Assembly: GCA_963665115.1 (NCBI GenBank)
Contig: OY762007.1
Span: forward strand, 4,608,001 to 4,672,000
Length of the DNA stretch: 64,000 nt
Direction: 5' to 3'
Source: an uncultured Rivularia sp.
GTDB taxonomy: Bacteria > Cyanobacteriota > Cyanobacteriia > Cyanobacteriales > Nostocaceae
Both the position numbers and the translations under genes were made by a program. A model generated the notes under the pieces. The model did no database searches and had not been told where the DNA came from. It saw nothing but the letters and a program-made list of their open reading frames with translations. Position 1 is the first letter of the stretch. Each line of letters opens with the position of its first letter. Below, in pieces: positions 3,065 through 63,621 of this stretch.

Positions 3065-6000
3065 TCGCTGCTAATGCTTCTGCTTTAAGAAGTTTAACGC
3101 GAGCAATTTCCCTTTCTAACGGGGAATTCTCGCTCGCATTAGTATGCTGTAATTATCAAGTTTTACAAGAGCAAATATTACAGCATTTGCAAGAAAAATT
3201 AGGGAAAAACTACCTATTACAAAAGGTCTGTTTACCTCCCCAGGCAAGGAGTTTATACAGTACAATTCATACGAAAATAGTTGAAACTGATTCGGATGAT
3301 TCGCAAAAAAGTGAAAACTTACCCAAAATAGCATTAATGGTTTTGGGTTTAGAATCAGTTGATGCACTCGATGACTTATTAAGTACTATCAATCACGTGC
3401 GCGATGAATTTCGCAAACAACATCCTTTCCCGATGGTAATTTGGGTAAACGAAGAAGTATTGCACAAATTACGGCGATTGGCCCCAGATTTTGCAAGTTG
3501 GGCTGCCACACCGATAAAACTTGAAATGACAACGATACAATTGCAGCAGTTTTTGCAACAAGAAACCGATTCATTATTCTCCACAGTTTTAAATATTGCC
3601 ACAGCCAGAGAAAAAGAACCTAGAATTATCAAAAATAATCGATGCGGTAAAAACTGTTTGGCAAAAAGTCAAAAAAACTCATCCGAACAGTATTGTCAAT
3701 GTACCTTAGAACAAATTTGGCAGCAAAAAAACGAACTGCATCATGCAATTAAAGACTTACAAACCCGTGGAATTAACTTAACTCCAGAACTAGAAGCTAG
3801 TTTACAATTTGTGTTTGGTTTGGACGAATACGTTAAAGACTCTATAGAAAAAGCAATAAACCACTTGAGGGACAGTTATCAGTTAACAGTTAACAGCGAA
3901 CAGTCTTTAATAATAGGTTATCGAAAGACAAATAAAACAGAAAAGATAATAATTTCTACCCCCTCTCCCTCTCTCCCCCTCTCCCCATCCTCCCACCTCC
4001 TCCATCAAGGAGTCATCCTCTTATACCTGGGTTTGTGTTTTCACCGTTTAGCCGAACGCGATCGCGGCGAGCAAGATGGTAATTGGCAATCTGCTGTGAG
4101 TTATTTCCAGCAGTGTTTGCAGGTATTTGAGTTGGCTGAGCGTCCGGTTTTGGTGGCGCAGTTTATCGGACAATTATGTGAGGTTTTACAGCAGCTTCAG
4201 GATTGGAATAAGTTACGGATAGTCGCTCAAAAGTCTTTGGAATTGCACCAGATACATGGTAATTATACTCAGCTTGCTTGCGATTGCGGTTATTTAGCAG
4301 ATGTGGCTTTGCAAGAATCAAAATGGAAGCAAGCAAGTAAATATGCTCAAGCTTCGCTGTTTTATTTGGCAGAAGCAAAGAATAACCATAAGGCACATCA
4401 AGCTTTATTCCCGTTGCTATTGGAGCAGATTTATCAGCTGGTTTTGGTGAAAGCTCTACAACTCTTGGGCGAGGAAAAAACCGCGCAACAGCATTTAGAA
4501 AATGCGAGTCAGAAGTTATCAATGATGATGGAAAATAGCGATTATCGTTATGATGTTCATCGTTACATTCGGCTTTTACGGCGGTTGCGATGGCTTTATT
4601 ACGAGTCAGGCAAGTATTTGGAAGCTTTTTTTATTCGTCGCGAACGACGTTCGGTAGAGCAACAGTATGGTTTGCGTGCTTTCATTGGTGCGGGTAGGTT
4701 GGAACCCCAAAGACAAGCAAAAAATCCGGTGTTAATTTCACCTGCGAAAAATACTGATGTTGCTCTGGAAATTACTGCTTCTGGTAGGGAACGAGATATT
4801 AATTTATTGATTGGAAAAATTAGTCGTTCCGATAAAAAGTTAATTTTGATTCATGGTGAATCGGGAGTCGGCAAAAGTTCTATTGTTAATGCTGGTTTGG
4901 TTCCAGCTTTGCAAAATAGACCAATTGGCGACCAAATTGCGGTACCCGTTGTGTTACAGGTTTATACAGATTGGGTGCGGGAGTTGGGTAAGTCTTTGAG
5001 TGAAGCGATGTTTGTCGATCAATCGCCGATTCGATATGCTTTTGGTAAGGAATTAAACGCTTCTCCTTATCCAGCCACACCGATTATAATCTCAAGTATT
5101 TTAGAACAGTTACGAGAAAATGCTAATAACCATTTGATAACTGTGTTGATTTTTGACCAGTTAGAAGAATTCTTCTTTGTTTGTAACGATAGAAGTCAAA
5201 AAGCAGAGTTTGATAATTTTATCTGTGAATGTTTAAATATTGCTTTTGTAAAAATAATATTTTCGCTAAGGGAAGACTATTTACATCATTTGCTAGATTT
5301 AAAACGTTTGGCGAAACAAGATTCAATTAGTAATAATATTTTAGATAAAGATATCCGCTATCAAGTTAATAATCTTTCCTCGGAAAATGCTAAAAGGGTA
5401 ATTCAAAAGTTAACGGAACGCTCTGAATACAATATTGAACCCGCTTTAATTGATACTTTAGTAGAAGATTTATCGTCAGGAATAGGAGAAGTACGTCCGA
5501 TTGAGTTACAGGTAGTAGGAGCGCAACTACAAGATGAAAGAATTACCACTTTAGCTAAATACGAACCCTATCGACCGAATAAATTAATTGAGCGATATAT
5601 CAAGGAAATTATTAAAGATTGCGGTTCGGAAAACGAGCAAGCTGCTTTACTGGTTTTATATTTATTAACTGACGAAAATCATAAAAGACCTTTTAAAACT
5701 AAGGCTGAATTAACAACCGAATTAGCAGAGTTTGAGTCGGGAGAAAAATTAGAGCTAGTCTTAGAAATTCTAGTACGTTCGGGATTAGTTGTATTATTTG
5801 CTGATATTACAGAACGCTATCAGTTAATTCACGATTATTTAGTTGATTTAATTCGTTTATTACAACAAGAGGAGTTAAACTTTCAAAATCAATTAAAAGA
5901 ATTAAGATATCAAGTACAGGAAAGAGAAACAGAAATTACTCGACTCCATAGCGAATTAAGGAAGAAAAAGCAGTCAAAAATAGTTGATAATCAACCCCAT

Positions 6001-8244
6001 GAAAACGTAAATGGATTTACAGAATTAAAAGAACTTCGCAAACGTGAAGAAGTTAGCCGAGTTGAAATTGAGCGGCTATTAGCAGAATTAGAACAGCAAA
6101 AGTTACAAGCGCAGCTAGCAGAAAGTCAACAGCAGCAAAAACTCAGCGAAGTCAAAGTTAATCGTTCTTTGAAAATTGCTCTTGCGGGTTCTGTTACGGC
6201 TATTTTTGCTTTAACAGCTTCGACGATAATGTCAGTGTATTTATGGAGACAATCTTTAATCAGCGAAATTCAAGCCATCAGCGCTTCAGCAGAAGAACTT
6301 GCAACTTCGGGTAAAGATTTCGATGCTTTGAGACAAGGATTGAAAGCAGCAAATAAATTTAAGACTGCATTTTTACCGGATGCTTATACAAAAGCTCAGG
6401 TAATGACGGCTTTACATCAAGTAGTTCCACAAATTAGAGAAAAAGAAACAATATCCGGACATTTATCAGGTGTTAATAGCGTTGCTTTTAGCCAACTTAA
6501 CTCTTTAATAGCTTCCGCCAGTGCTGATAATACAGTTAAATTATGGTATCCAGATGGTAAATTTTTTCGTACTTTATCGGGACATACTGATGTAGTTAAT
6601 AGCGTCACTTTTAGTCCTGACGGTACTAAAGTTGCTTCTGCTTCTCAAGATAAAACTGTTAAGCTTTGGACTTTAGATGGTACAAGTTTAACTTTATTAG
6701 GACATACTGATATTGTTAATAGTGTTGCTTTTAGTCCTAGTGGTAGAATAATTGCTTCTGGAAGTACCGATAAAACACTCAAGCTTTGGAATCGTGCAGG
6801 CAAATTATTAAAAACACTTTTCGGTCATGATGATGCAGTTTTGCAAGTTGCTTTTTCTCCTAATGGTGAAACCCTTGCTTCTGTAAGTAGCGATAAAACT
6901 ATTAAGCTTTGGAATCAAAACGGTAAAAATATTCGTACTATTAGCGGACATCAGGATGCAATTACTAGCATTGCTTGGTCTAAAGACGGTAAAATTATTG
7001 CTTCGGCAAGTTTGGATAAAACTGTCAAATTGTGGAATCTTCAAGGCAAGTTATTAAAAGTTATTAAAGCACATTCAGAACCTATTACTGCTGTCAACTT
7101 TAGCCCCGACAATCAAGTTATTGCTACAGTCAGCACCGACGGAACCGTTAAACTTTGGCGCTGGCAAGATGGAATACTATTAGGAACCCTAAAAGGACAC
7201 AAAGATTGGGTAAATGATGTTAGTTTCAGCCCAGATAGCAAAACTCTTGCTTCCGCTAGTCGAGATAAAACGGTGAAACTTTGGTCTTGGCAGAATTTAT
7301 TATTAGGAAATCTGAAAACACATAATAAAGCAGTCACCAGCGTTAGTTTTTCCCTAGATGGTAATTTAATTGCTTCGGGAAGCACCGATAAAACTATTAA
7401 ATTATGGACTCCTAACGGTACGCAAATCAAAACTTTACAGCCATATCAAGAGGAAATTTGGGATGTCAGTTTTAGTCCCGACGGTAAAATTATTGCATCT
7501 GCGGGTAAAGATAAAACTATCAAACTATGGCAAAATAACGGTAAATTAATTAAAACTATTGCTGCTCACAATAACGTAATTTTAAGTCTTGCTTGGTCTA
7601 ATAAAGATAATATTTTAGCTTCTGCTAGTAAAGACAAAACCGTTAAACTGTGGCATAGAAACGGCGAATTAATTACAACTTTGTCGGGACATCAGCAAGC
7701 TGTAAACTGGGTTAGTTTCAGTAGCGATGGTGAATTTATTGCTTCAGCTAGCGACGATAATACCGTTAAAATTTGGCATAAATCCGGTAACTTATTACAT
7801 ACATTGACGGGACATAAAGGTTCCGTATTTGGTCTTTCTTGGTCTAAGAAAGGTAATATTCTCGCTTCAGCCAGCCTTGATGGTACTGTGAAATTGTGGA
7901 ACCAAAAAGGCGAATTACAGCAAACTTTAATTGCAGAAGGTGAAGAATTTACTGGCGTAACATTTAGCCCCGACGGTAAATTATTAGCAGCTACCAGCGA
8001 AGATAAAGTAAATCTTTGGCAGCGTGACGGTACGTTATTAATTACTTTGAAAGCCGATCGAGAAGAGTTTACCAGTATTAGCTTCAGTCCAGATAGTGAA
8101 ACTTTATTAAGCGGTACCAGCAGAGGGACAATAATTTTACGAGATTTAGATAATTTAACCTTAGAAAAATTACGTATTAAAGGCTGCGACGCGCTGCAAG
8201 ATTATGGGAAGGAAGAAGATGATTTGTGTTTGGATAAGAGATAG
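3034..8244 (+). CDS. STAND-type NTPase with TPR-like region, coiled coil, TM helix and C-terminal WD40 propellers
   Basis: Walker A GESGVGKSS, Walker B LIFDQLEEFF, IIFSLREDYL (nSTAND1-like), about 14 GH...W repeats (ASASxDKTVKLW). Confidence 0.88.
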   Translation: MVGTTEQSDLVAANASALRSLTRAISLSNGEFSLALVCCNYQVLQEQILQHLQEKLGKNYLLQKVCLPPQARSLYSTIHTKIVETDSDDSQKSENLPKIALMVLGLESVDALDDLLSTINHVRDEFRKQHPFPMVIWVNEEVLHKLRRLAPDFASWAATPIKLEMTTIQLQQFLQQETDSLFSTVLNIATAREKEPRIIKNNRCGKNCLAKSQKNSSEQYCQCTLEQIWQQKNELHHAIKDLQTRGINLTPELEASLQFVFGLDEYVKDSIEKAINHLRDSYQLTVNSEQSLIIGYRKTNKTEKIIISTPSPSLPLSPSSHLLHQGVILLYLGLCFHRLAERDRGEQDGNWQSAVSYFQQCLQVFELAERPVLVAQFIGQLCEVLQQLQDWNKLRIVAQKSLELHQIHGNYTQLACDCGYLADVALQESKWKQASKYAQASLFYLAEAKNNHKAHQALFPLLLEQIYQLVLVKALQLLGEEKTAQQHLENASQKLSMMMENSDYRYDVHRYIRLLRRLRWLYYESGKYLEAFFIRRERRSVEQQYGLRAFIGAGRLEPQRQAKNPVLISPAKNTDVALEITASGRERDINLLIGKISRSDKKLILIHGESGVGKSSIVNAGLVPALQNRPIGDQIAVPVVLQVYTDWVRELGKSLSEAMFVDQSPIRYAFGKELNASPYPATPIIISSILEQLRENANNHLITVLIFDQLEEFFFVCNDRSQKAEFDNFICECLNIAFVKIIFSLREDYLHHLLDLKRLAKQDSISNNILDKDIRYQVNNLSSENAKRVIQKLTERSEYNIEPALIDTLVEDLSSGIGEVRPIELQVVGAQLQDERITTLAKYEPYRPNKLIERYIKEIIKDCGSENEQAALLVLYLLTDENHKRPFKTKAELTTELAEFESGEKLELVLEILVRSGLVVLFADITERYQLIHDYLVDLIRLLQQEELNFQNQLKELRYQVQERETEITRLHSELRKKKQSKIVDNQPHENVNGFTELKELRKREEVSRVEIERLLAELEQQKLQAQLAESQQQQKLSEVKVNRSLKIALAGSVTAIFALTASTIMSVYLWRQSLISEIQAISASAEELATSGKDFDALRQGLKAANKFKTAFLPDAYTKAQVMTALHQVVPQIREKETISGHLSGVNSVAFSQLNSLIASASADNTVKLWYPDGKFFRTLSGHTDVVNSVTFSPDGTKVASASQDKTVKLWTLDGTSLTLLGHTDIVNSVAFSPSGRIIASGSTDKTLKLWNRAGKLLKTLFGHDDAVLQVAFSPNGETLASVSSDKTIKLWNQNGKNIRTISGHQDAITSIAWSKDGKIIASASLDKTVKLWNLQGKLLKVIKAHSEPITAVNFSPDNQVIATVSTDGTVKLWRWQDGILLGTLKGHKDWVNDVSFSPDSKTLASASRDKTVKLWSWQNLLLGNLKTHNKAVTSVSFSLDGNLIASGSTDKTIKLWTPNGTQIKTLQPYQEEIWDVSFSPDGKIIASAGKDKTIKLWQNNGKLIKTIAAHNNVILSLAWSNKDNILASASKDKTVKLWHRNGELITTLSGHQQAVNWVSFSSDGEFIASASDDNTVKIWHKSGNLLHTLTGHKGSVFGLSWSKKGNILASASLDGTVKLWNQKGELQQTLIAEGEEFTGVTFSPDGKLLAATSEDKVNLWQRDGTLLITLKADREEFTSISFSPDSETLLSGTSRGTIILRDLDNLTLEKLRIKGCDALQDYGKEEDDLCLDKR

Positions 8245-54016: not shown

Positions 54017-55612
54017 CTAAGCTATTTTCAGCACTTTACGTAAAACTAATTGGTCTTCTATTTTAACTTTTAGACGACCGTTTTCTATGTCCCGAATCCA
54101 GCTTTGGCTTTTTCCCATCAGTCTTGCTAATTCCCTTTGAGAAATGCTCAGGTTTTTTCTCGCTAAACGTATTTGTTCGCCAAGTAAACCACCTGCTGTT
54201 TTAATATTTCTTCTCTTTTTAGAGTTGCCAACCCTCTGCTGTTTTTTCCTTGCTGTAAGATTTGGCTGATCCCATTTTGGTGACATTTCAAAAGCTAAAA
54301 TTCTGGCATTCATTAGCATTTTCCACTTACCACGGGGACTCACATCGGTTAACCTTCTTCCTTCATCACCATCATTAGTCCAAAATTCCAAGGCTTCATC
54401 TGGATCTTCGGGAATATCTGCTAACTTTGCCCACAGCGGCTGAATCGGTTCTGGATAACTAACTGGATCGAAAATGGGTTTCATCCCATGATGCGATAAA
54501 GTTTCTAAATCGCTTTCATAAGTTCGCAGCAGTCGTTTTCTTTCTTCCCTTTGTCTGCAAGCAATTGCGACTTTGCGATCGCCATATGCAACACGCATTA
54601 ATGTAGGTACTGTAATGCGCTGTTGTTTGCCCATTTTTGCTTTGAACATTAACCACATCATAAGTCTTGCCGCACCTTCATGCTGCTGCCAAATACTCAT
54701 CACTGTAGTCAGCAAAGATTTAGGCAAATTACCATACTGATAAAAGGCTGTTCGCTCTTTGCAAGCATCTTTATTTAAAAAATACTTTGCCCAATCACCA
54801 GCTTTGACTCTAAATGTTAAACCTACCAAATATTTACATCCTAGATCGTCATGTTGGAAATGATGCTGAATTCCTGTTAAATCCCAAAGCTTACTTTTTT
54901 CTAAGAAAATTGGTTTGATACGCCCCTGTTGCGGCAAATCAATCGAAAGCATTAAGGAGCAAGCTTGGAGAACTAAATTTTTCATCAAAGCCAATTTTGT
55001 GGTTTTGTTCAAGTCTTTGCGTTTTTCTAACCCTAAATACTTCTCTATTTGCTTATCGTCTACAACAAACTCTTCCTCCCAAGATTTTTCCGAAAAAGTC
55101 GCATAAGCTGCAAAAATTAAATGCACGCAAGCAGATCGAATATCCAGAGCTTCTACTGCTTCTAAATCTGTGGCAAGTTCGCTTGCTTCAGAATAAGAAT
55201 TAAGATGAAAAGCAATTTTCCCCTTTCCTTGATTGATCTTTTTGCTGTAACGTACTTGGTTGTTTTCATCTATTTCCCAAGGCAAAGATGCTCTTTGAGA
55301 TAACACATTACAAGCTTCCCAAATCGGAATACCCGATGCAAATGGATTACTTTTACCATTAAAAAATAAATCGGAACTAGTTAATTCTCTATCGTCAATT
55401 TTGCACCTCCCTTTTTTTACTTGTAATGGTATTGGAGACTTACTCGGACAGGCAGATACGCACTGGGGTTCTGAATAATAACCCTCGCAATTGTTACATA
55501 AATGAGGGTCAATCCAATATTCACCATTATCGATTTTGATAGCACCTGTTGGACACTGAAAACGACATTTGTCGCATCCAGCACAACTATTGTTAGATAT
55601 TGTATAAGGCAT
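54017..55612 (-). CDS. cnfR: CnfR/PatB, nif master regulator (4Fe-4S ferredoxin domain + C-terminal HTH)
   Basis: MPYTISNNSCAGCDKCRFQCPTGAI...CNNCEGYYSEPQCVSACP; C-terminal XRE HTH SQRELARLMGKSQSWIRDIENGR. Confidence 0.93.
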   Translation of the reverse strand: MPYTISNNSCAGCDKCRFQCPTGAIKIDNGEYWIDPHLCNNCEGYYSEPQCVSACPSKSPIPLQVKKGRCKIDDRELTSSDLFFNGKSNPFASGIPIWEACNVLSQRASLPWEIDENNQVRYSKKINQGKGKIAFHLNSYSEASELATDLEAVEALDIRSACVHLIFAAYATFSEKSWEEEFVVDDKQIEKYLGLEKRKDLNKTTKLALMKNLVLQACSLMLSIDLPQQGRIKPIFLEKSKLWDLTGIQHHFQHDDLGCKYLVGLTFRVKAGDWAKYFLNKDACKERTAFYQYGNLPKSLLTTVMSIWQQHEGAARLMMWLMFKAKMGKQQRITVPTLMRVAYGDRKVAIACRQREERKRLLRTYESDLETLSHHGMKPIFDPVSYPEPIQPLWAKLADIPEDPDEALEFWTNDGDEGRRLTDVSPRGKWKMLMNARILAFEMSPKWDQPNLTARKKQQRVGNSKKRRNIKTAGGLLGEQIRLARKNLSISQRELARLMGKSQSWIRDIENGRLKVKIEDQLVLRKVLKIA

Positions 55613-56883
55613 AAGGCTTATTGCCACTTCACTTCTTGCGACTTTGGCTCAAGTCCTACCTAGATGTGTCTTCATCGTAAATTTTATTTACCACACTTTA
55701 CGACAAGAAAAAGGTTTACTTCTCGTAATTACTGACTCACATCTATAAATTTACTCTACGATTAATTACAGGAAGTTAATTAGTAGTATTAACCCGATCC
55801 TGTATTTCACACTTCGTTATTTATAGTTTTCATAAAGTTGTTAAAAAGTTTTGTTCGTAATGAGCTAAGGACTATTTTTTATGCTATTTCTACAGGTTTA
55901 GTGATAAATCATCACTTAATGACCTGCAAAAATATTTTAATTGTTCTCAAAGAACAACTCAATTGCTAATATCTTTTTGCAGAAAATTTATTTGATTTTA
56001 CTTGCGTCTATTTCTTATCTTAACATATTCTTCACGTAACCTTTATATTTATTTAGTTTTTGTTTACAATAGATTTTTAAGTATTTAATCCTATAGTGAT
56101 TTTAAAGTTTGGATACTAAGTTAAAAATCTGCTAAGTATTGCTAGATTTATTTTTTGATTGATTGCATAAAATAGGTTATTCATGAACAAATCACTAAAA
56201 TCAAAATAGTCATAAATTAACAAATGTAAATTTGAAAATACTATAGTATGATGAATAATATTTTTTACACAAAACTATTAATCAAAGATAAATTATATTT
56301 TGTAAACTTTATTTTTAATTCATAATCAAGTTAGCTGAATTAAGCTATCTTGGAATCAATGCTGGAATAAGGTTTAGTCAAGTAGACAGATATAGGTAAA
56401 TCTAAAATAAACGTGTCCTCCACTTATTAGATAACTTCGTGTAGCTGAATTATGTAATAAGCATTATTAACCGTCTAAATTAGACAGTATTTATATCTTG
56501 CGAACTTATCCCTCATAGAGAAAAATTATGTTCAATTGCTGCGTTTTATGAATCTTAAAATTAGTAGCTGCTTCTCTTTCAAGATTTACTCATCAAGACA
56601 TTATCCTAAAATCTGAAAGTCGTGTAATAAGTACATAAGTTTTAAAGTTATAAAAAAGAATTAAAAGCGTAGCGAAACAAACTTAAAACTTATGCATTTT
56701 CTTGCCAAATAGATGTAGCAAAGAAATTTTTACGGAATTACATAAGTATATGAAGGAAATCGCACCGCGTACCCTCATACCGTATAGATTCAATCGGCGG
56801 ATGAATGTAATAAACTAAAAGCGAAATCTGAAAATAAGCACATTCATCACCAAATTACACGAAACTTTATATCATAAGTCGCC

Positions 56884-57865
56884 ATGCAACAAATTCCTGC
56901 TTCATTACTAACCTTGGTTGCTGGAGCTTTAGTCACAATCATAGGTTTATGGGTTAGTCAAACTCATAATTTATTACCAGTACAAGCATCCGAACAAGCA
57001 CCATTGGTAGACGGATTCTTCAACGTCATGTTCGCGATCGCCATTGCTTTATTCTTAATCGTAGAAGGAACAATCCTATTTTTCGCGATTCATTTTCGTC
57101 AGCGTAAAGGCGACGAGACAGATGGGCCCACCAATTGAAGGAAACGTTCCTTTAGAAATATTTTGGACTGCAATTCCGACTCTAATAGTTTTTGCTTTAG
57201 GTATCTACAGCGTAGATGTCTACAAGCAAATGGGAGGATTTCCGTCATCTACTCCAGTAATAGAGGCTCAAAATCATCACGGTAGTGGAAGTGCCATTGC
57301 AGCCACGATCGGCGAAGCTCCGATAATTTCATCAGAAGCAGCACCTTTAGCCAGTCAAAAGGTTGGTATTAAAGGCTCACCCGAACAGCAAGGTAAAGCA
57401 GCAGATGTAACTGTAGACGTTACCGGAATGCAGTTCGCTTGGATTTTCAGTTATCCACAAGATAATGTCACATCCGGTGAATTACACGTACCAGTAGGTG
57501 CTGACATACAGTTGAACATTGCAGCAACAGACGTAATCCACTCATTTTGGGTACCGCAATTTCGTTTAAAGCAAGATGCGATTCCTGGAATGAATACCGA
57601 ATTGCGATTTGTCGCCACCAAACCGGGAACTTATCCCGTGGTTTGTACAGAATTATGTGGTGCTTATCACGGTGCAATGAGAAGTAAAGTAATCGTTCAC
57701 ACTCCCGAAGAATATCAAGGCTGGTTGCAAGAAAACCGCGTTGCACAGCAAGAATCGCAAACAGTTGCAATTAACCCCGCACAATTATCATCATCCGAAT
57801 ATCTAGCTGCATACAATTCGGAAATTGATATTAACTCAGCAACTCTTGCTCAAATTAATAAATAG
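56884..57865 (+). CDS. coxB: Cytochrome c oxidase subunit II; apparent +1 frameshift at 57124-57129
   Basis: DGPPIEGNVPLEIFWT is restored by deleting one base. CuA motifs DVIHSFW and CTELCGAYHGAM. Confidence 0.93.
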
Positions 57866-58053: not shown

Positions 58054-58985
58054 ATGACTCAATTAGAACATCCACAAAGTACAACTGAAGTGGCTGCTCA
58101 TGCTCATCCCGAAGCATGGAAGTGGTATCAATATTTCACATTTAATGTAGACCACAAGGTAATTGGAATCCAATACCTAGTGACATCGTTTATTTTTTAT
58201 CTGATCGGTGGATTGATGGCTGTAGCCATGCGTGCCGAATTGGCGACACCGGATGCAGATTTACTCGATCCTAATCTGTATAATGCTTTTCTGACCAACC
58301 ACGGAACAATCATGATTTTTCTGTGGATTGTTCCCAGCGCAATTGGTGGCTTCGGTAACTATTTAATACCGCTGATGGTTGGCGCTAGGGATATGGCTTT
58401 CCCGAAGCTGAATGCTGTAGCCTTTTGGTTAAACCCGCCAGCCGGAGCTTTAGTTATAGGTAGTTTCTACTTCGGTGGTTCTCAATCTGGCTGGACAGCC
58501 TATCCACCCTTAAGTTTGGTAACGGCGAATACCGCTCAAAGTATGTGGATTCTCGCCATTGTTTTGGTCGGAAGTTCCTCTATTTTGGGTTCATTGAACT
58601 TTGTTGTTACCATCTGGAAGATGAAAGTTCCTTCTATGAAGTGGGATGAATTACCCTTATTTTGTTGGGCAATTTTGGCTACTTCATTATTGGCACTTGT
58701 TTCTACACCAGTACTAGCTGCTGGTTTGGTATTGCTGCTATTTGATATTAACTTCGGTACTTCCTTCTTTAAACCAGATGAAGGCGGTAACGTGGTTATT
58801 TACCAGCATCTATTCTGGTTTTATTCTCATCCAGCAGTTTATTTAATGATTCTGCCTATCTTCGGGATTCTTTCTGAAGTAATTCCGGTTCATGCACGTA
58901 AACCAATTTTTGGATATAAGGCGATCGCCTATTCCAGTTTGGCGATTTGCGTTGTAGGTTTATTTGTGTGGGTTCATCATATGTT
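58054..58985 (+). CDS. coxA: Cytochrome c oxidase subunit I, 5' segment (interrupted)
   Basis: DHKVIGIQY, GWTAYPPL, HLFWFYSHPAVY, ends VWVHHMF at the left direct repeat. Confidence 0.96.
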
Positions 58986-59019
58986 TCTTATTGATTAATA
59001 TTCCCTAAAAGCTGTAAAT

Positions 59020-59066
59020 TGTATCTAACAAACACTGTAGCCAATAAACATTGTTTGTTATGAACA
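59020..59066. promoter_or_regulatory. Three tandem TGT-N9-ACA boxes (NtcA-like) upstream of the recombinase
   Basis: TGTATCTAACAAACA 59020-59034, TGTAGCCAATAAACA 59036-59050, TGTTTGTTATGAACA 59052-59066; exact 16-bp period. Confidence 0.65.
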
Positions 59067-59097
59067 GTTTTTAAGGAATATATAGGGAATAAACACA

Positions 59098-60492
59098 ATG
59101 GAAGCAGACATCTACCAAGAAGCATTTAAAGACTTTGAATCATCAGCTACAACAGACGGCAGCTACTTGGGTATAAATAAAGCACGATTAGAGTTAGAAG
59201 CACATATGGAAATGAAGATAGAAGAAAAATTAAAAGAAGCTAATTTACGACTTAAAGAAATTAATGCGAAAGTTTCCTTGACTCGGAAAGGTAATGCAGT
59301 ACAGCTACGAGCTACGTTACCGCTTAAACCAGGTGACATTAGTACAAAAGGTAGACATACAAAGCAGTATCAAATATCGTTGAATATTCCAGCTAACTTA
59401 GATGGATTAAAAACAGCAGAAGAAGAAGCCTATGAATTAAGTAAGTTAATATCCAGAAAGTGTTTCGAGTGGAATGACAAATATTTAGGGCATAAAACCT
59501 CTGATAATGTTGATATAACCTTTGGTGAAATATACGAAAAATTTGAAGATATTTTTTTTCAATCAAGAAAAAGAGATATCAAAAGCGAACATACTTTAAC
59601 TGAATACAAAAAAGTTTTTAAAAGAGAATTTTTACCAAATTTAATTGTAAATAAAAGCAATATCGAAATTTCTCTAAAAAAAGTTGATTCAAGCAGCAAA
59701 AGATTTCAAGCGCTAAAAGTTGCCAGCATCATTTGCAAATACCTAGAAATAGACTGTGACTTTAAAACACTCAAGCTTCCTATCAAAGTACAAAAAAGAG
59801 ATATCCCTCAAGATAATTTGATTATTCAAGGTTTTTATGCATTCGATAAATACAGTGAATTAAACAAACATAAAAAAAATCCTTATTGGAATACTTACTT
59901 AATATATAGATTGGCTTATGGTTTAATAGCGACTTATGGATTGCGCCCTAGAGAAGTATTTAATCAACCCGATATTGATTGGTTTATGAGTGAAGATAAT
60001 ATCGATAATACTTGGAAAGTTCACAATGATAATAAAACAGGAGCGAGGGAAGTATTACCCTTTATGCCGGAGTGGATTGAACTATTTGATTTAAAAAATA
60101 AAAAGTCGTTTAATTTACTTAAACAAAGAACTGAAAAAATTAAATGTTCTTCACAATTAACTATTATAGTAGATAAAAATTCTCAATGGTTTAAAAGAGT
60201 TGGATTAGAATTTAAACCTTATGATTTACGTCATGCTTGTGCTATTAGAGCGCATTTACAAGGCATACCAATTAAAGCAGCAGCAGACAACTTAGGGCAT
60301 TCCATAGAAATGCATACGAAAGTTTATCAAAAATGGTTCTCATTAGAAAATCGTAAGAGAGCAATTAATACAGCTTTAAGTGAAAAAGAAGAATTAGAAA
60401 TAATTAAAGAGAAAAATATTTATCTACAAAATAGGGTGGATTTTTTAACCGCAGAATTAGAAAAGTATAAATTACAAGCAGTTAGTACATAG
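59098..60492 (+). CDS. XisA/XisC-like tyrosine site-specific recombinase
   Basis: VQLRATLPLKPGD...QYQISLNIPANLDGLKTAEEEAYEL (Xis N-terminus); catalytic YGLRPRE, KTG, YDLRHACAIR, LGHS, HTKVY. Confidence 0.93.
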   Translation: MEADIYQEAFKDFESSATTDGSYLGINKARLELEAHMEMKIEEKLKEANLRLKEINAKVSLTRKGNAVQLRATLPLKPGDISTKGRHTKQYQISLNIPANLDGLKTAEEEAYELSKLISRKCFEWNDKYLGHKTSDNVDITFGEIYEKFEDIFFQSRKRDIKSEHTLTEYKKVFKREFLPNLIVNKSNIEISLKKVDSSSKRFQALKVASIICKYLEIDCDFKTLKLPIKVQKRDIPQDNLIIQGFYAFDKYSELNKHKKNPYWNTYLIYRLAYGLIATYGLRPREVFNQPDIDWFMSEDNIDNTWKVHNDNKTGAREVLPFMPEWIELFDLKNKKSFNLLKQRTEKIKCSSQLTIIVDKNSQWFKRVGLEFKPYDLRHACAIRAHLQGIPIKAAADNLGHSIEMHTKVYQKWFSLENRKRAINTALSEKEELEIIKEKNIYLQNRVDFLTAELEKYKLQAVST

Positions 60493-60531
60493 TTCAAAGC
60501 AAATTTTACTCAGAAGAGGCATAATTTAGCA

Positions 60532-60564
60532 AACTTGGAAGTAAATTATAATTGTTTCCAAGTT
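60532..60564. terminator. Imperfect palindrome downstream of the recombinase
   Basis: AACTTGGAA-GTAAATTATAATTGT-TTCCAAGTT. Terminator versus protein-binding site is unresolved. Confidence 0.35.
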
Positions 60565-60763
60565 ATTTATTGTCTATATAGATACTCAAATTATGAATAT
60601 ATTTTTTTAAGGAATAAATAGCGAATATAAACATGAGAAATAACTTGATTTATGTAATTGTGGGCAGTAATTGAATATGTATTTAAGGAATATTTAGAGA
60701 ATAATAATTAAAATAAACATTTAGCTTTTGCTATCTAAAGATTTTAATGGTTCATCATATGTT

Positions 60764-61500
60764 CACCAGCGGTACACCGGGCTGGATGCGGATGTTTTTT
60801 ACCATCTCCACCCTGATAGTTGCAGTTCCTACCGGAATCAAAATCTTTAGTTGGGTGGCGACTCTTTGGCAAGGAAAAATTCGCTATACTAGCGCGATGC
60901 TGTTCGCTATCGGCTTATTGATGATGTTCGTTTTAGGTGGAATCGGTGGCGTTACCTTGGGTACAGCACCATTCGACGGACACGTTCACGATACATATTA
61001 TGTAGTTGCTCACTTCCACTACGTCTTATTTGGCGGTTCCGTATTTGGTATTTACGCTGCGATATACCATTGGTTCCCTAAAATGACCGGAAGAATGATG
61101 AATGAAAGATTAGGTCAAATTCACTTTGTCCTTACCTTCATCGGCACCAACTTAACCTTTTTACCCATGCACGAACTGGGTTTACAAGGAATGCCTCGTC
61201 GAGTTGCCATGTACGATCCACAATTTGAAGCTATCAATCAGCTTTGTACTTATGGTGCTTATCTGTTAGCAGTATCCGTAATTCCTTTCACCATCAATGT
61301 TATTTGGAGTTGGATGGCTGGAGCAAAAGCTGGCGATAATCCTTGGAATGCTTTGACATTAGAATGGACAACCGCTTCACCACCAGCCATTGAAAACTGG
61401 GAAGAATTACCCGTCGTAACTCACGGCCCCTTACGATTACGGCGTGGTAACTGAGGGTGAACCTTTAGAACCCACAGCAGAAGCAGAAGCCACTGCTTAA
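60764..61500 (+). CDS. coxA: Cytochrome c oxidase subunit I, 3' segment; apparent +1 frameshift at 61425-61430
   Basis: TSGTPGWMRMFFT...AVPTGIKIFSW, HDTYYVVAHFHYV, GMPRR. Removing one C gives THGPYDYG...ATA* ending at 61500. Confidence 0.95.
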
Positions 61501-61540: not shown

Positions 61541-61651
61541 GTAGTGCGAGCATCTTGCTCGCTGATGTTTAAAACGAGCATCTTGCTCGCTGATGTTTAA
61601 AACAAGCATCTTGCTCGCTGATGTTTAAAACGAGCATCTTGCTCGCACTAC
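61541..61651. repeat. REP-derived array of four 28-bp units between coxA and coxC
   Basis: GTAGTGCGAGCA...TGCTCGCACTAC termini; unit GAGCATCTTGCTCGCTGATGTTTAAAAC. Confidence 0.88.
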
Positions 61652-61837: not shown

Positions 61838-62428
61838 ATGGCGATCGCCACAGAAAACTCACCAGCGCAACATGAAGAACACGCCGATTTACGAGTTATA
61901 GGATTAATAACTTTCCTAATCTCGGAATCCTTAATGTTTGGTGGATTCTTTGCTACCTATTTGTTCTATCGAGGAACCACTGCAACTTGGCCCCCCGAAG
62001 GAACAGAAGTAGAGTTATTGTTGCCAACCATCAACACCATCATTCTAGTGTCAAGCAGTTTCGTCATTCACTTCGGCGATTCAGCGATTAAAAAGAATGA
62101 TGTCAAAGGAATGCGAAAATGGTACAAAATTACCGCATTCATGGGAATTATTTTCTTGCTAGGTCAAGTTTACGAGTATCTGACATTAGGATACGGAATG
62201 ACTAGCAACTTATTCTCCAACTGTTTTTACCTGATGACAGGATTCCACGGCTTACACGTATTCATCGGAGTCTTGTTAATTTTAGGTGTATTGTGGCGTT
62301 CCCGTCGCACCGGACATTACAGCGAACACAAACATACCGGAATCGAGATGGCAGAAATCTACTGGCACTTTGTAGATATCATCTGGATTGTACTCTTCAC
62401 GCTGCTTTATATTCTTACTAAATTTTGA
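61838..62428 (+). CDS. coxC: Cytochrome c oxidase subunit III
   Basis: FLISESLMFGGFF, NTIILVSSS, TGFHGLHV, YWHFVDIIW. Confidence 0.95.
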   Translation: MAIATENSPAQHEEHADLRVIGLITFLISESLMFGGFFATYLFYRGTTATWPPEGTEVELLLPTINTIILVSSSFVIHFGDSAIKKNDVKGMRKWYKITAFMGIIFLLGQVYEYLTLGYGMTSNLFSNCFYLMTGFHGLHVFIGVLLILGVLWRSRRTGHYSEHKHTGIEMAEIYWHFVDIIWIVLFTLLYILTKF

Positions 62429-62562: not shown

Positions 62563-63045
62563 ATGCAAAACACAGACGAATTCTCCTGGTACGAGGTACC
62601 CGAAGATGTCAAGCAGTTATTAGTATTAGCGGCAGATAATTGGGAAAATACCTCAGAGTCCGAAAAATACATTAATCAAGCTTTAGCTAAAACGGGAAAT
62701 AATTTAGACGTTTTAATCTCAGCTTATAGATATTTTTATTACAAACAGAATTATCAAATGGCGCTGGAAACAGCAGAAAAAGTTCAAAATGAAGTTAAAC
62801 AAACAGAAAAATTACCCGATGATTGGGAAAAACTAAAACCAGTATTAATTAAACGTAAAGAAGAACAAATTATCCGACTATATTTGAATTCTTATGCTGC
62901 AACGGGTCTAATTTTCGCTATATTAGGAAAAGAACAAGAAGCCAAAGAAATATGTCATAAAGTCAAAGAGATAGACGACAAAAATGACTTTGGCGCAGGA
63001 ATATTGTTTGATGTTTTAACACGTCCTCCAGAAGAAGATGACTAA
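62563..63045 (+). CDS. TPR-like hypothetical protein, paralog 1
   Basis: FSWYEVPEDVKQLL...AYRYFYYKQ. Confidence 0.8.
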   Translation: MQNTDEFSWYEVPEDVKQLLVLAADNWENTSESEKYINQALAKTGNNLDVLISAYRYFYYKQNYQMALETAEKVQNEVKQTEKLPDDWEKLKPVLIKRKEEQIIRLYLNSYAATGLIFAILGKEQEAKEICHKVKEIDDKNDFGAGILFDVLTRPPEEDD

Positions 63046-63141
63046 TATCCTCATTGGATTTTATCTTTAATCCAAAATCTTCTTATTCCCTTGTTCACTT
63101 CATTTACTCACTTCATCACTTCATCAAAGAAAGTCAAAACT

Positions 63142-63621
63142 ATGTCACAGATAGAACAATTCACTTGGTACGACGTACCCGAAGATATCAAGCAGCTATT
63201 AATAAAAGCAGCGGACAATTCGGACAATACTTCAGAGTGCGAAAAATACATCAGTCAAGCTTTAGCTAAAACGGACAATGAACTAGATGTTTTAATAGCA
63301 GCCTATAGATATTTTTATTACAAGCAAAAATACCAAATGGCGCTAGAAACAGCACAGAAAGTTCAAGAGAAAGCTAAAGAAATCGCAAAATTGCCCGATG
63401 GCTGGGAAGATCAAAAGCCAATATTATTTCAGCGTGAAGAAGAACAAATTATCCAAGTATATGTAAATGCTTATTCTGCCACAGGAATAATTTTCGCTGC
63501 ACTAGGAGAAGCAGAAAAAGCCCAAGAAATATCCGATAAAGTCAAAGACGTAGATAGAGCAAATGTCTTTACCGCAGGTATATTGGCTGATATTTCAGAA
63601 CTAGGTACTTTCAAGCAATAA
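63142..63621 (+). CDS. TPR-like hypothetical protein, paralog 2 (tandem duplicate)
   Basis: FTWYDVPEDIKQLL...AYRYFYYKQ. ATG at 63142 aligns with the start of paralog 1. Confidence 0.8.
   Translation: MSQIEQFTWYDVPEDIKQLLIKAADNSDNTSECEKYISQALAKTDNELDVLIAAYRYFYYKQKYQMALETAQKVQEKAKEIAKLPDGWEDQKPILFQREEEQIIQVYVNAYSATGIIFAALGEAEKAQEISDKVKDVDRANVFTAGILADISELGTFKQ

What the first reader, a model, noticed from the sequence alone, without database searches (positions are those of the whole stretch)
58971..60763. Minimal recombinase-only excision element splitting coxA at the CuB His-His codons
Seen: the coxA 5' half ends ...GTG TGG GTT CAT CAT ATG TTT CTT ATT GAT TAA and the 3' half begins GTT CAT CAT ATG TTC ACC AGC GGT. 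An exact 15-bp direct repeat GGTTCATCATATGTT lies at 58971-58985 and 60749-60763. Recombination removes 1,778 bp and gives an in-frame VWVHHMFTSGTPGW junction (about 555 aa after correcting the +1 at 61425). The only gene inside is an intact tyrosine recombinase. Established: XisA (nifD) and XisC (hupL) tyrosine recombinases excise such elements during heterocyst differentiation, and the HH pair ligates CuB. Inference: the oxidase is genetically disabled in vegetative cells and repaired by programmed DNA excision. The element is far smaller than the roughly 10-kb nifD/hupL elements and targets respiration rather than nitrogenase or hydrogenase. Other gene-interrupting elements are known in heterocystous strains, so the novelty of this exact site must be checked.
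Basis: partly seen in the sequence, partly recalled or inferred. Interest (0 to 1): 0.93.

Follow-up and report, generated by a model that had tools for sequence, protein, structure and literature searches.

The report
Mobile recombinase-only element splits heterocyst oxidase
A 1.8-kb DNA insert carrying only its own cutting enzyme splits the oxygen-consuming oxidase gene coxA2 in 17 of 26 related Rivularia-like cyanobacterial genomes and is likely cut out in nitrogen-fixing cells; such inserts are a known kind, but this site is new to the surveys I could read and the insert appears to be lost and swapped between species.

Summary
An exact 15-bp repeat (only two copies in 8.69 Mb) flanks a 1,778-bp, 29%-GC insert holding one XisA/XisC-family tyrosine recombinase; removing it restores coxA in frame. 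Four runs of one study bridge it, so it is not a misassembly. The host is likely coxA2, the heterocyst oxidase beside patB/cnfR.

The same site is split in 17 of 26 congeneric genomes and intact in 9. Both coxA halves (dN/dS 0.02-0.035), the recombinase and the repeat core are conserved, which implies working excision. Excision was not observed.

Hilton 2016 lists three coxA elements and 1.7-1.9-kb tyrosine-recombinase elements in Rivularia and Calothrix. New here:
- a tyrosine recombinase in coxA, at nt 918;
- a separate recombinase clade at the same codons of coxA3 in Nostoc;
- a TGT-N9-ACA array shared with xisA and anchored to the crossover site;
- repeated loss, plus element/host discordance suggesting transfer between species.

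It is best read as a selfish element hiding in a heterocyst-only gene, not a needed switch. The scan had noted kindred nif/hup elements on other DNA, but not this one.

The parts
54017..55627 (-). patB/cnfR-like regulator (N-terminal 4Fe-4S dicluster, C-terminal XRE HTH), divergent from the cox operon; marks the operon as cox2
   Evidence: domains; single copy in genome; CnfR definition in PMC8510180 passage; coxBAC2 lies near cnfR1 in PMC8461463 passage
56884..57865 (+). coxB2 (subunit II); apparent frameshift at 57127 is likely an assembly error; 326 aa without it
58054..58985 (+). coxA2 5' part (aa 1 to about 311, includes H259, H308, H309); runs on into the element and stops at 58998
58971..58985 (+). 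left direct repeat (attL-like core); the inner 14 bp are invariant in 16 of 16 left ends seen
59020..59066 (+). three TGT-N9-ACA motifs at a 16-bp period; same array at nearly the same distance from the core in this genome's canonical nifD xisA element; NtcA or other host-factor sites (inferred)
   Evidence: xisA NtcA ChIP region in PMC3898017 supplement
59075..59091 (+). 6-5-6 (11-bp period) direct-repeat pair just before the recombinase start; putative arm-type recombinase site (inferred)
59098..60492 (+). XisA/XisC-family tyrosine recombinase, 464 aa; R283, K313, Y375, R378, H401, Y410
60532..60564 (+). long AT-rich hairpin followed by a T-rich run after the recombinase gene; putative terminator (inferred)
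   Evidence: a similar hairpin is the best local fold in 10 of 13 complete elements
60611..60627 (+). second 6-5-6 pair, about 139 bp before the right core; putative arm-type site
   Evidence: present at -137 to -140 in 15 of 15 right ends
60687..60703 (+). third 6-5-6 pair, about 63 bp before the right core; putative arm-type site
   Evidence: pattern met in 13 of 15 right ends; visible with one change in the other two
60749..60763 (+). right direct repeat (attR-like core); inner 14 bp invariant in 16 of 16 right ends seen
60749..61500 (+). coxA2 3' part (aa about 307-555, includes H394, H396); extra base at 61427 is likely an assembly error
61838..62428 (+). coxC2 (subunit III), intact

Best explanation
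This is a minimal interruption element of the XisA/XisC tyrosine-recombinase family sitting in what is likely coxA2, the heterocyst oxidase subunit I gene, and its recombinase likely excises it as a 1,778-bp circle during heterocyst differentiation, which would restore a 555-aa CoxA2. Likely working (all inferred): nitrogen starvation turns on the cox2 operon and the recombinase gene, which lies 126 bp inside the left end in the same direction as coxA, helped or gated by a host factor such as NtcA at the TGT-N9-ACA array. The recombinase binds the two 14-15-bp cores plus the three 6-5-6 sites, exchanges strands within the core and releases the circle. Vegetative cells keep the element and pass it on. 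It behaves as a nearly neutral selfish element: lineages lose it precisely from time to time, and element DNA moves between species.
For: Anatomy: exact repeats, in-frame join, recombinase only; 13 complete orthologous elements of 1,778-1,994 bp. Family: 42-52% identity to 8 paralogs in this genome's nif/hup region. One of these lies in the nifD element bounded by the canonical xisA repeat (46%). The H-to-Y substituted tetrad described for XisA/XisC/XisG (PMC3610870 passage) is present, and R283/K313/R378/H401/Y410 are intact in 15 of 15 orthologs (Y375). The coxA2-site recombinases form one clade (15 rows, support 100) inside a radiation whose labelled members flank nif, hup and cox genes. 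Function is under selection: dN/dS is 0.023 for the 5' half (15 split genomes) and 0.035 for the 3' half (13), against 0.027 and 0.033 in 9 intact genomes, and 0.125 for the recombinase. The 14-bp core is identical in 32 of 32 element ends, whereas 5 of 9 empty sites carry synonymous changes in it; only 7 of 38 comparable two-fold codons are invariant in the 5' half. The tandem TGT-N9-ACA pair has 5 matches in the genome: two at xisA, two at this element, one elsewhere. Orthologs keep two exact copies at +65/+81 from the core in 13 of 14 cases while the core-to-ATG distance varies from 118 to 163 bp. Precedent: coxA reconstitution by excision is reported as a preliminary result in Calothrix NIES-4101 (PMC11249958). 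Loss and exchange: at least 7 state changes on a 21-row coxA2 tree, and empties as one clade rejected (p-AU 3e-51). G163 and G167 differ at 0.227 (patB) and 0.241 (coxA flank) of synonymous sites but 0.021 in the recombinase; G000, G163 and G168 differ at 0.06-0.07 in patB but 0.16-0.22 in the recombinase.
Against: No excised junction or circle from this organism was seen in contigs of X1-X4; contigs drop rare variants and the joint table was cut. A circle-junction pattern found 0 matches in metagenome contigs, while the control pattern found 4 true left ends among 7 matches. No RNA data, so heterocyst-specific expression is untested. The NtcA ChIP paper annotates a different putative NtcA site upstream of xisA than the TGT-N9-ACA array. 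One own-genome paralog (beside hupL) and the xisA-type one show no exact 6-5-6 pair in the 190 bp scanned. Many orthologs are metagenome-assembled, so single discordant pairs could be chimeric.
Confidence: 0.82

Rival explanations
1. The element is not excised; CoxA2 is made as two polypeptides (aa 1-311 with both His ligands, and a second piece starting at the Met codon inside the right repeat) that assemble into a working subunit.
For: Both repeats contain CAT CAT ATG, so the 5' piece keeps H308/H309 and the 3' piece has an in-frame ATG. This would also explain purifying selection on both halves.
Against: It does not explain the intact, selected recombinase or the invariant non-coding halves of the cores. 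The 5' fragment's tail varies from 8 to 30 aa across 15 genomes. A terminator-like hairpin lies between the recombinase and the 3' piece. Same-family elements are excised in nif genes (PMC11249958 section 14).
Confidence: 0.05
2. The element is a host-domesticated developmental switch that is kept because it blocks or times cox2 oxidase assembly.
For: Carried by 17 of 26 congeners with conserved cis sites. cox2 is hit at several positions (coxA2 aa 85-91, 307 and 392, and coxB2), and a different recombinase clade hits the same codons of coxA3 in Nostoc.
Against: 9 of 26 congeners, including G171 and G172 (CoxA 99% identical to ours), have precise empty sites. cox2 is reported to be heterocyst-specific already (PMC4874684 passage). 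The same paper cites no growth effect of nifD element presence or absence.
Confidence: 0.1
3. It is an ordinary integrative element that excises at low frequency in any cell type, with no link to heterocyst differentiation.
For: Repeated precise loss requires at least occasional excision in vegetative or germ-line cells. Horizontal exchange implies activity outside terminal heterocysts.
Against: Unregulated excision would purge it quickly. The labelled family members flank heterocyst-function genes. It shares its upstream motif array with xisA.
Confidence: 0.03

Closest known systems
Small tyrosine-recombinase interruption elements of Rivularia sp. PCC 7116 (#7 hupS 1.828 kb, #8 nifB 1.868 kb, #9 nifD 1.735 kb) and Calothrix sp. 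PCC 7103 (#10, #11 nifD, 1.669 and 1.750 kb); PMC4874684 Table B (supplement parts 2-3 read)
   Same: Size, low GC, tyrosine recombinase, exact short direct repeats inside a heterocyst gene. #8 and #9 have the recombinase at the start of the element in the host gene's direction.
   Different: Target gene (coxA2) and repeat sequence. The coxA2-site recombinases form their own clade, about 45-54% identical to family members at other sites.
coxA2/coxA3 interruption elements of Calothrix PCC 6303, PCC 7102 and PCC 7103 (PMC4874684 Table B) and the two coxA elements of Calothrix NIES-4101 (PMC11249958 Table 2)
   Same: Cytochrome c oxidase subunit I split by a recombinase-bearing element that must be removed to restore the gene.
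   Different: Those carry serine recombinases. The Hilton ones lie at nt 255, 274 and 732 and are 12-984 kb. This one is a tyrosine recombinase at nt 918, 1.78 kb, with a different repeat.
nifD element (XisA) and hupL element (XisC) of Nostoc/Anabaena PCC 7120
   Same: Recombinase family with the H-to-Y tetrad; TGT-N9-ACA array about 32-66 bp from the core end on the recombinase-start side (own-genome xisA; also readable in the 7120 xisA ChIP region).
   Different: 9-11 kb with cargo; recombinase at the far end on the opposite strand; excision experimentally proven there, not here.

Membership tests
Heterocyst interruption (excision) elements, Hilton et al. 2016 definition | Gene split into two parts whose overlap is an exact direct repeat and whose join is in frame | tested here: met
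Heterocyst interruption (excision) elements, Hilton et al. 2016 definition | xis-like recombinase gene inside the element, near one end (start of the element if co-oriented) | tested here: met
   ATG 118-163 bp from the left core start, same strand, in 15 of 15
Heterocyst interruption (excision) elements, Hilton et al. 2016 definition | Interrupted gene is heterocyst-specific | tested here: inconclusive
   cox2 identity inferred from patB/cnfR synteny and from the two other cox operons; expression in this organism not measured
Heterocyst interruption (excision) elements, Hilton et al. 2016 definition | Excision occurs during heterocyst differentiation, leaving a circle | tested here: inconclusive
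   No own-organism junction in contigs; no circle junction in collections; only indirect support from selection
XisA/XisC/XisG tyrosine recombinases | Phage-integrase catalytic tetrad with His replaced by Tyr (R-Y-R-Y) | tested here: met
   R283, Y375, R378, Y410; definition from PMC3610870 passage
XisA/XisC/XisG tyrosine recombinases | Full-length homology to XisA-type proteins | tested here: met
   46-47% over 99% of length to proteins incl. one named XisA (P0115); 46% to own nifD-element recombinase
XisA orthologs in the strict sense (nifD-1353 element) | Clusters with XisA and uses the nifD repeat | tested here: not met
   Separate clade; different repeat
Published coxA element variants (nt 255, 274, 732) | Same insertion position (+/-10 bp) and serine recombinase | tested here: not met
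   nt 918, tyrosine recombinase
Lambda-Int-like arm-type architecture | Recombinase N-terminal domain binds direct-repeat pairs at fixed distances from the core | not testable with these tools
   Conserved pairs at fixed distances shown; binding not shown; the structure prediction never returned

The most novel reading that the evidence does not exclude
Heterocyst excision elements are not just inherited relics. This coxA2 element cycles through precise loss and site-specific re-invasion of the empty site across Rivularia-like species. A host factor (NtcA-like) bound at a fixed distance from the crossover gates the recombination complex itself. Two separate recombinase lineages have converged on the conserved His-His codons of the two heterocyst oxidases. 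A 1.8-kb one-gene element in cultured strains would then make the open 'retained or lost and reintroduced' question directly testable.
Probability: 0.45. Interest if true: 0.62.

Novelty: new member of a known kind. Interest (0 to 1): 0.4.

Why it matters
It extends programmed heterocyst DNA excision by tyrosine recombinases to the respiratory oxidase that protects nitrogenase; the coxA elements in the two papers I read use serine recombinases. More usefully, it is a one-gene element that is present or absent among close relatives, with signs of exchange between species. That bears on the question posed in the abstract of PMC4874684, whether such elements were retained or lost and reintroduced. 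Its short ends expose the conserved cis sites (core, three 6-5-6 pairs, TGT-N9-ACA array), so it is a compact model for how Xis recombinases choose direction and cell type. It also warns annotators that split coxA2 genes in these genomes are likely not pseudogenes.

Tried and rejected
Misassembly: rejected; contigs of four runs bridge the element and 17 genomes share it. Decaying pseudogene: rejected by dN/dS.

Direct evidence of excision from reads: none for this organism. In run X5 (a biofilm metagenome with a relative; share 0.17) one 375-nt contig at depth 6.5 skips exactly 1,778 bp, beside an element-bearing contig at depth 53. I do not count it as excision. It is a separate contig over 287 shared bases, with 27 differences from the window, and empty-site relatives exist, so a co-occurring empty-site strain explains it at least as well. 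No RNA holder was listed.

Collection scans: circle-junction pattern 0 matches in metagenome contigs. The left-end pattern gave 0 in viral contigs and 7 in metagenome contigs, 4 true left ends and 3 chance matches. Order-wide patterns in 401 genomes (27 other genomes of the family, none other of this genus): the coxA2 left end was found only in G000, the coxA3-type end in 1 genome (G018, not examined further).

Sigma-70 promoter scan: no excess over shuffles (19 vs 23.5). PDB sequence search for the recombinase: only a weak XerC-like hit. The AlphaFold job on alignment A2 had not finished after repeated collection attempts, so there is no structural statement.

A common origin of the coxA2-site and coxA3-site recombinases was rejected only modestly (p-AU 0.024, 37 of 101 rows used, LG+G4, with a long-branch warning).

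Literature searches: 'heterocyst + excision element + coxA' gave 0 papers; some searches returned the two papers discussed and none whose listing describes this site. Subscription journals and the figure-based supplements (Hilton S2 File; NIES-4101 Fig. S11, legend only) were not seen and could show this site. The scan's own notes had 0 hits for coxA elements.
Full report
OBSERVATION. The sequence is as described. GGTTCATCATATGTT is exact at 58971-58985 and 60749-60763, is not extendable, and these are the only two copies in the 8.69-Mb genome. The 1,778 bp between them are 28.9% GC against 42-45% for the coxA pieces, and hold one ORF of 60 aa or more: 59098-60492 (+), 464 aa, Phage_integrase. 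Removing one repeat plus the insert joins the COX1 halves in frame. Single contigs from four runs of one study bridge the element; X1 may be the window's source. Three of the four lack the extra base at 61427, which gives a 555-aa CoxA; the coxB frameshift at 57127 is likewise probably an error. Both repeat copies contain the His-His codons. That this pair binds CuB, and that H394/H396 bind the hemes, is recalled knowledge; one search shows only that the motif aligns with solved subunit I sequences.

WHICH OXIDASE. The genome has three coxBAC operons; the other two coxA genes (66% and 57% identical) are uninterrupted. A single-copy gene with N-terminal 4Fe-4S and C-terminal XRE domains lies divergently upstream, matching the description of CnfR/PatB (PMC8510180, passage). 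In PCC 7120 patB is all2512 and cox2 is alr2514-2516 (PMC7065334, table passage), and coxBAC2 lies near cnfR1 in other Nostoc strains (PMC8461463, passage). So this is inferred to be coxA2, which PMC4874684 (parts 1-3 of 5 and supplement file 1 parts 2-3 read) describes as heterocyst-specific.

THE RECOMBINASE. It has R283, K313, Y375, R378, H401 and Y410, including the His-to-Tyr change described for XisA, XisC and XisG (PMC3610870, passage). Eight paralogs at 42-52% lie in this genome's nif/hup region. One is inside the nifD element bounded by the canonical xisA repeat. In a 101-row tree the 15 coxA2-site proteins form one clade (SH-aLRT 100), separate from XisA proper. The labelled neighbours flank nifD, nifH, nifK, nifN, hupL, coxB and coxA; several rows stayed unlabelled.

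DISTRIBUTION. Of 27 genomes of the genus, 17 are split at this site, 9 are intact and 1 gave no cox2 match. One more carrier (G110) belongs to another genus of the family. Thirteen complete elements are 1,778-1,994 bp with no room for a second sizeable gene. The two closest genomes by coxA, G171 and G172 (99%), are empty. On a 21-row coxA2 tree presence changes at least 7 times and the empties are not one clade (p-AU 3e-51).

EVIDENCE THAT IT WORKS. Both coxA halves are under as strong purifying selection in split genomes (dN/dS 0.023, n=15; 0.035, n=13) as in 9 intact ones (0.027, 0.033), and the recombinase is open and conserved in 15 of 15 (0.125) (pairwise means, kin are not independent; G155 was left out of the 5' set because of a frameshift). 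The 14-bp core is identical in 32 of 32 element ends, while 5 of 9 empty sites have synonymous changes in it. A gene half downstream of a stop codon and a terminator-like hairpin stays under such selection most simply if excision restores the gene. Excision was not seen directly. There was no junction in X1-X4 (contigs drop rare forms) and no circle junction in metagenome contigs, against 4 true left ends found by the control. The one contig that skips exactly 1,778 bp, in run X5, is as well explained by an empty-site strain.

CIS ANATOMY. Three 6-5-6 direct-repeat pairs lie just before the recombinase start and about 139 and 63 bp before the right core. The -139 pair is met in 15 of 15 right ends and the -63 pair in 13 of 15 by pattern. 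Six of the eight paralogs have their own element-specific 11-bp-period repeat before the start. I read these as arm-type recombinase sites, a reading taken from scan note e1-2469047; binding is untested. Three TGT-N9-ACA motifs at a 16-bp period lie at 59020-59066. The tandem pair has five matches in the genome: two here, two upstream of the nifD xisA, one elsewhere. Offsets from the core end are 34/50/66 here and 32/48/64 at xisA. The same array (one mismatch in the first motif) can be read in the NtcA-bound region upstream of PCC 7120 xisA, though that paper annotates another putative site (PMC3898017, passages and supplement rows). Orthologs keep two exact motifs at +65/+81 from the core in 13 of 14 cases, while the distance to the ATG varies from 118 to 163 bp. 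The array is thus tied to the crossover site rather than to the start codon. That NtcA binds TGT-N9/10-ACA upstream of xisA is recalled from older literature that I could not retrieve.

MOVEMENT BETWEEN SPECIES. Synonymous differences in patB and the recombinase correlate overall (r 0.76, 91 pairs), so inheritance is largely vertical, but there are sharp exceptions. G163 and G167 differ at 0.227 in patB and 0.241 in the coxA flank but 0.021 in the recombinase, and flank mismatches run to 10 bp from the core. G000, G163 and G168 are close by patB (0.06-0.07) yet carry recombinases 0.16-0.22 apart, and their sisters G171 and G172 are empty. The recombinase tree rejects the host pair G156+G162 (p-AU 0.0003), and the coxA tree rejects the recombinase pair G000+G162 (p-AU 0.027) (both groups were named after seeing the trees). 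Against a clean re-invasion story: the recombinase genes look mosaic, the last 120 bp before the core are unusually variable among close hosts, and the G168 flank is itself discordant. Homologous exchange of short blocks may therefore do part of this, and metagenome bins can be chimeric.

A PARALLEL CASE. Five loci (four titled Nostoc, one uncultured) have the cox3-type coxA split at the same His-His codons by 1.8-2.3-kb elements with an 8-bp repeat and a 45-49% identical recombinase on the opposite strand. The two recombinase groups are not sisters in either tree; one clade is rejected at p-AU 0.024 with a long-branch warning. Independent arrival at a codon-constrained, hence stable, target is the likely reading.

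COMPARISON WITH WHAT IS KNOWN. PMC4874684 lists three coxA elements, at nt 255, 274 and 732, all with serine recombinases and 12-984 kb, and uses one as its Figure 1. It also lists tyrosine-recombinase elements of 1.67-1.87 kb in nifD, nifB and hupS of Rivularia PCC 7116 and Calothrix PCC 7103. PMC11249958 (section 14, passages and a supplement legend read) reports preliminary coxA reconstitution by two serine-recombinase excisions. So neither the small size nor the respiratory target is new. I found no description of a tyrosine-recombinase element in coxA, or of the nt-918 site, in searches of an open-licence library.

VERDICT. A real, well-conserved new member of a known class. It is most likely excised in heterocysts (0.82) and most likely a near-neutral passenger rather than a switch. 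Interest 0.4, carried by the presence/absence and exchange pattern, the parallel coxA3 element and the core-anchored motif array.

Noticed in passing
L047, L052, L061, L064, L069 (reverse strand; element ends about 3750-3880 and 5650-6140): cox3-type coxA split at the same His-His codons by 1,825-2,282-bp elements with an 8-bp repeat and a different XisA-family recombinase; a matching end pattern also occurs in G018 (L108).
   Followed up: partly
G000:C1:4203842-4205734 (in L079): nifN appears split at a His-Gly codon pair by a 1,886-bp XisA-family recombinase element with a 7-bp repeat; nifN is not among the 22 orthologs in Table 1 of PMC4874684. L062 and L065 carry orthologous recombinases.
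   Followed up: partly
G000:C1:4129765-4131138 (in L077): An XisA-family recombinase lies about 1.1 kb upstream of the nifB start, not inside a recognised coding region. Motifs resembling CnfR sites (recalled) lie upstream of it, so it may interrupt the nifB leader. No clear flanking repeat was found.
   Followed up: partly
L092 (G156), coxB2 near aa 104-112: coxB2 is split by an XisA-family recombinase (50%); this genome has three elements within one cox2 operon. coxB is not in Table 1 of PMC4874684.
   Followed up: no
L015 and L021, coxA2 near aa 392: A second tyrosine-recombinase element interrupts coxA2 just before the H394/H396 motif.
   Followed up: no
L076, L085, L088, L092, coxA2 aa 85-91: About 1.8-kb inserts, each with one ORF of about 490-500 aa that looks like a serine recombinase (by eye), near the published nt 255/274 positions. 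In G157 patB lies about 168 kb from the coxA middle piece.
   Followed up: partly
G000:C1:6561814: The only tandem TGT-N9-ACA pair outside the xisA and coxA2 elements; context not examined.
   Followed up: no
window 62563-63045 and 63091-63621: Two tandem paralogous (64%) TPR-like ORFs downstream of coxC2; the first was found next to cox2 in most relatives whose fetched stretch reached that far.
   Followed up: no
window 61549-61646: Tandem 28-bp repeat (about 3.5 copies) between coxA2 and coxC2; one unit is missing in run X4.
   Followed up: no
G000:C1:4138020 and 4194866: Two paralogous recombinases, including the xisA-type one, show frameshifts in the assembly; probably the same kind of assembly error as in coxA and coxB, not checked against reads.
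   Followed up: no
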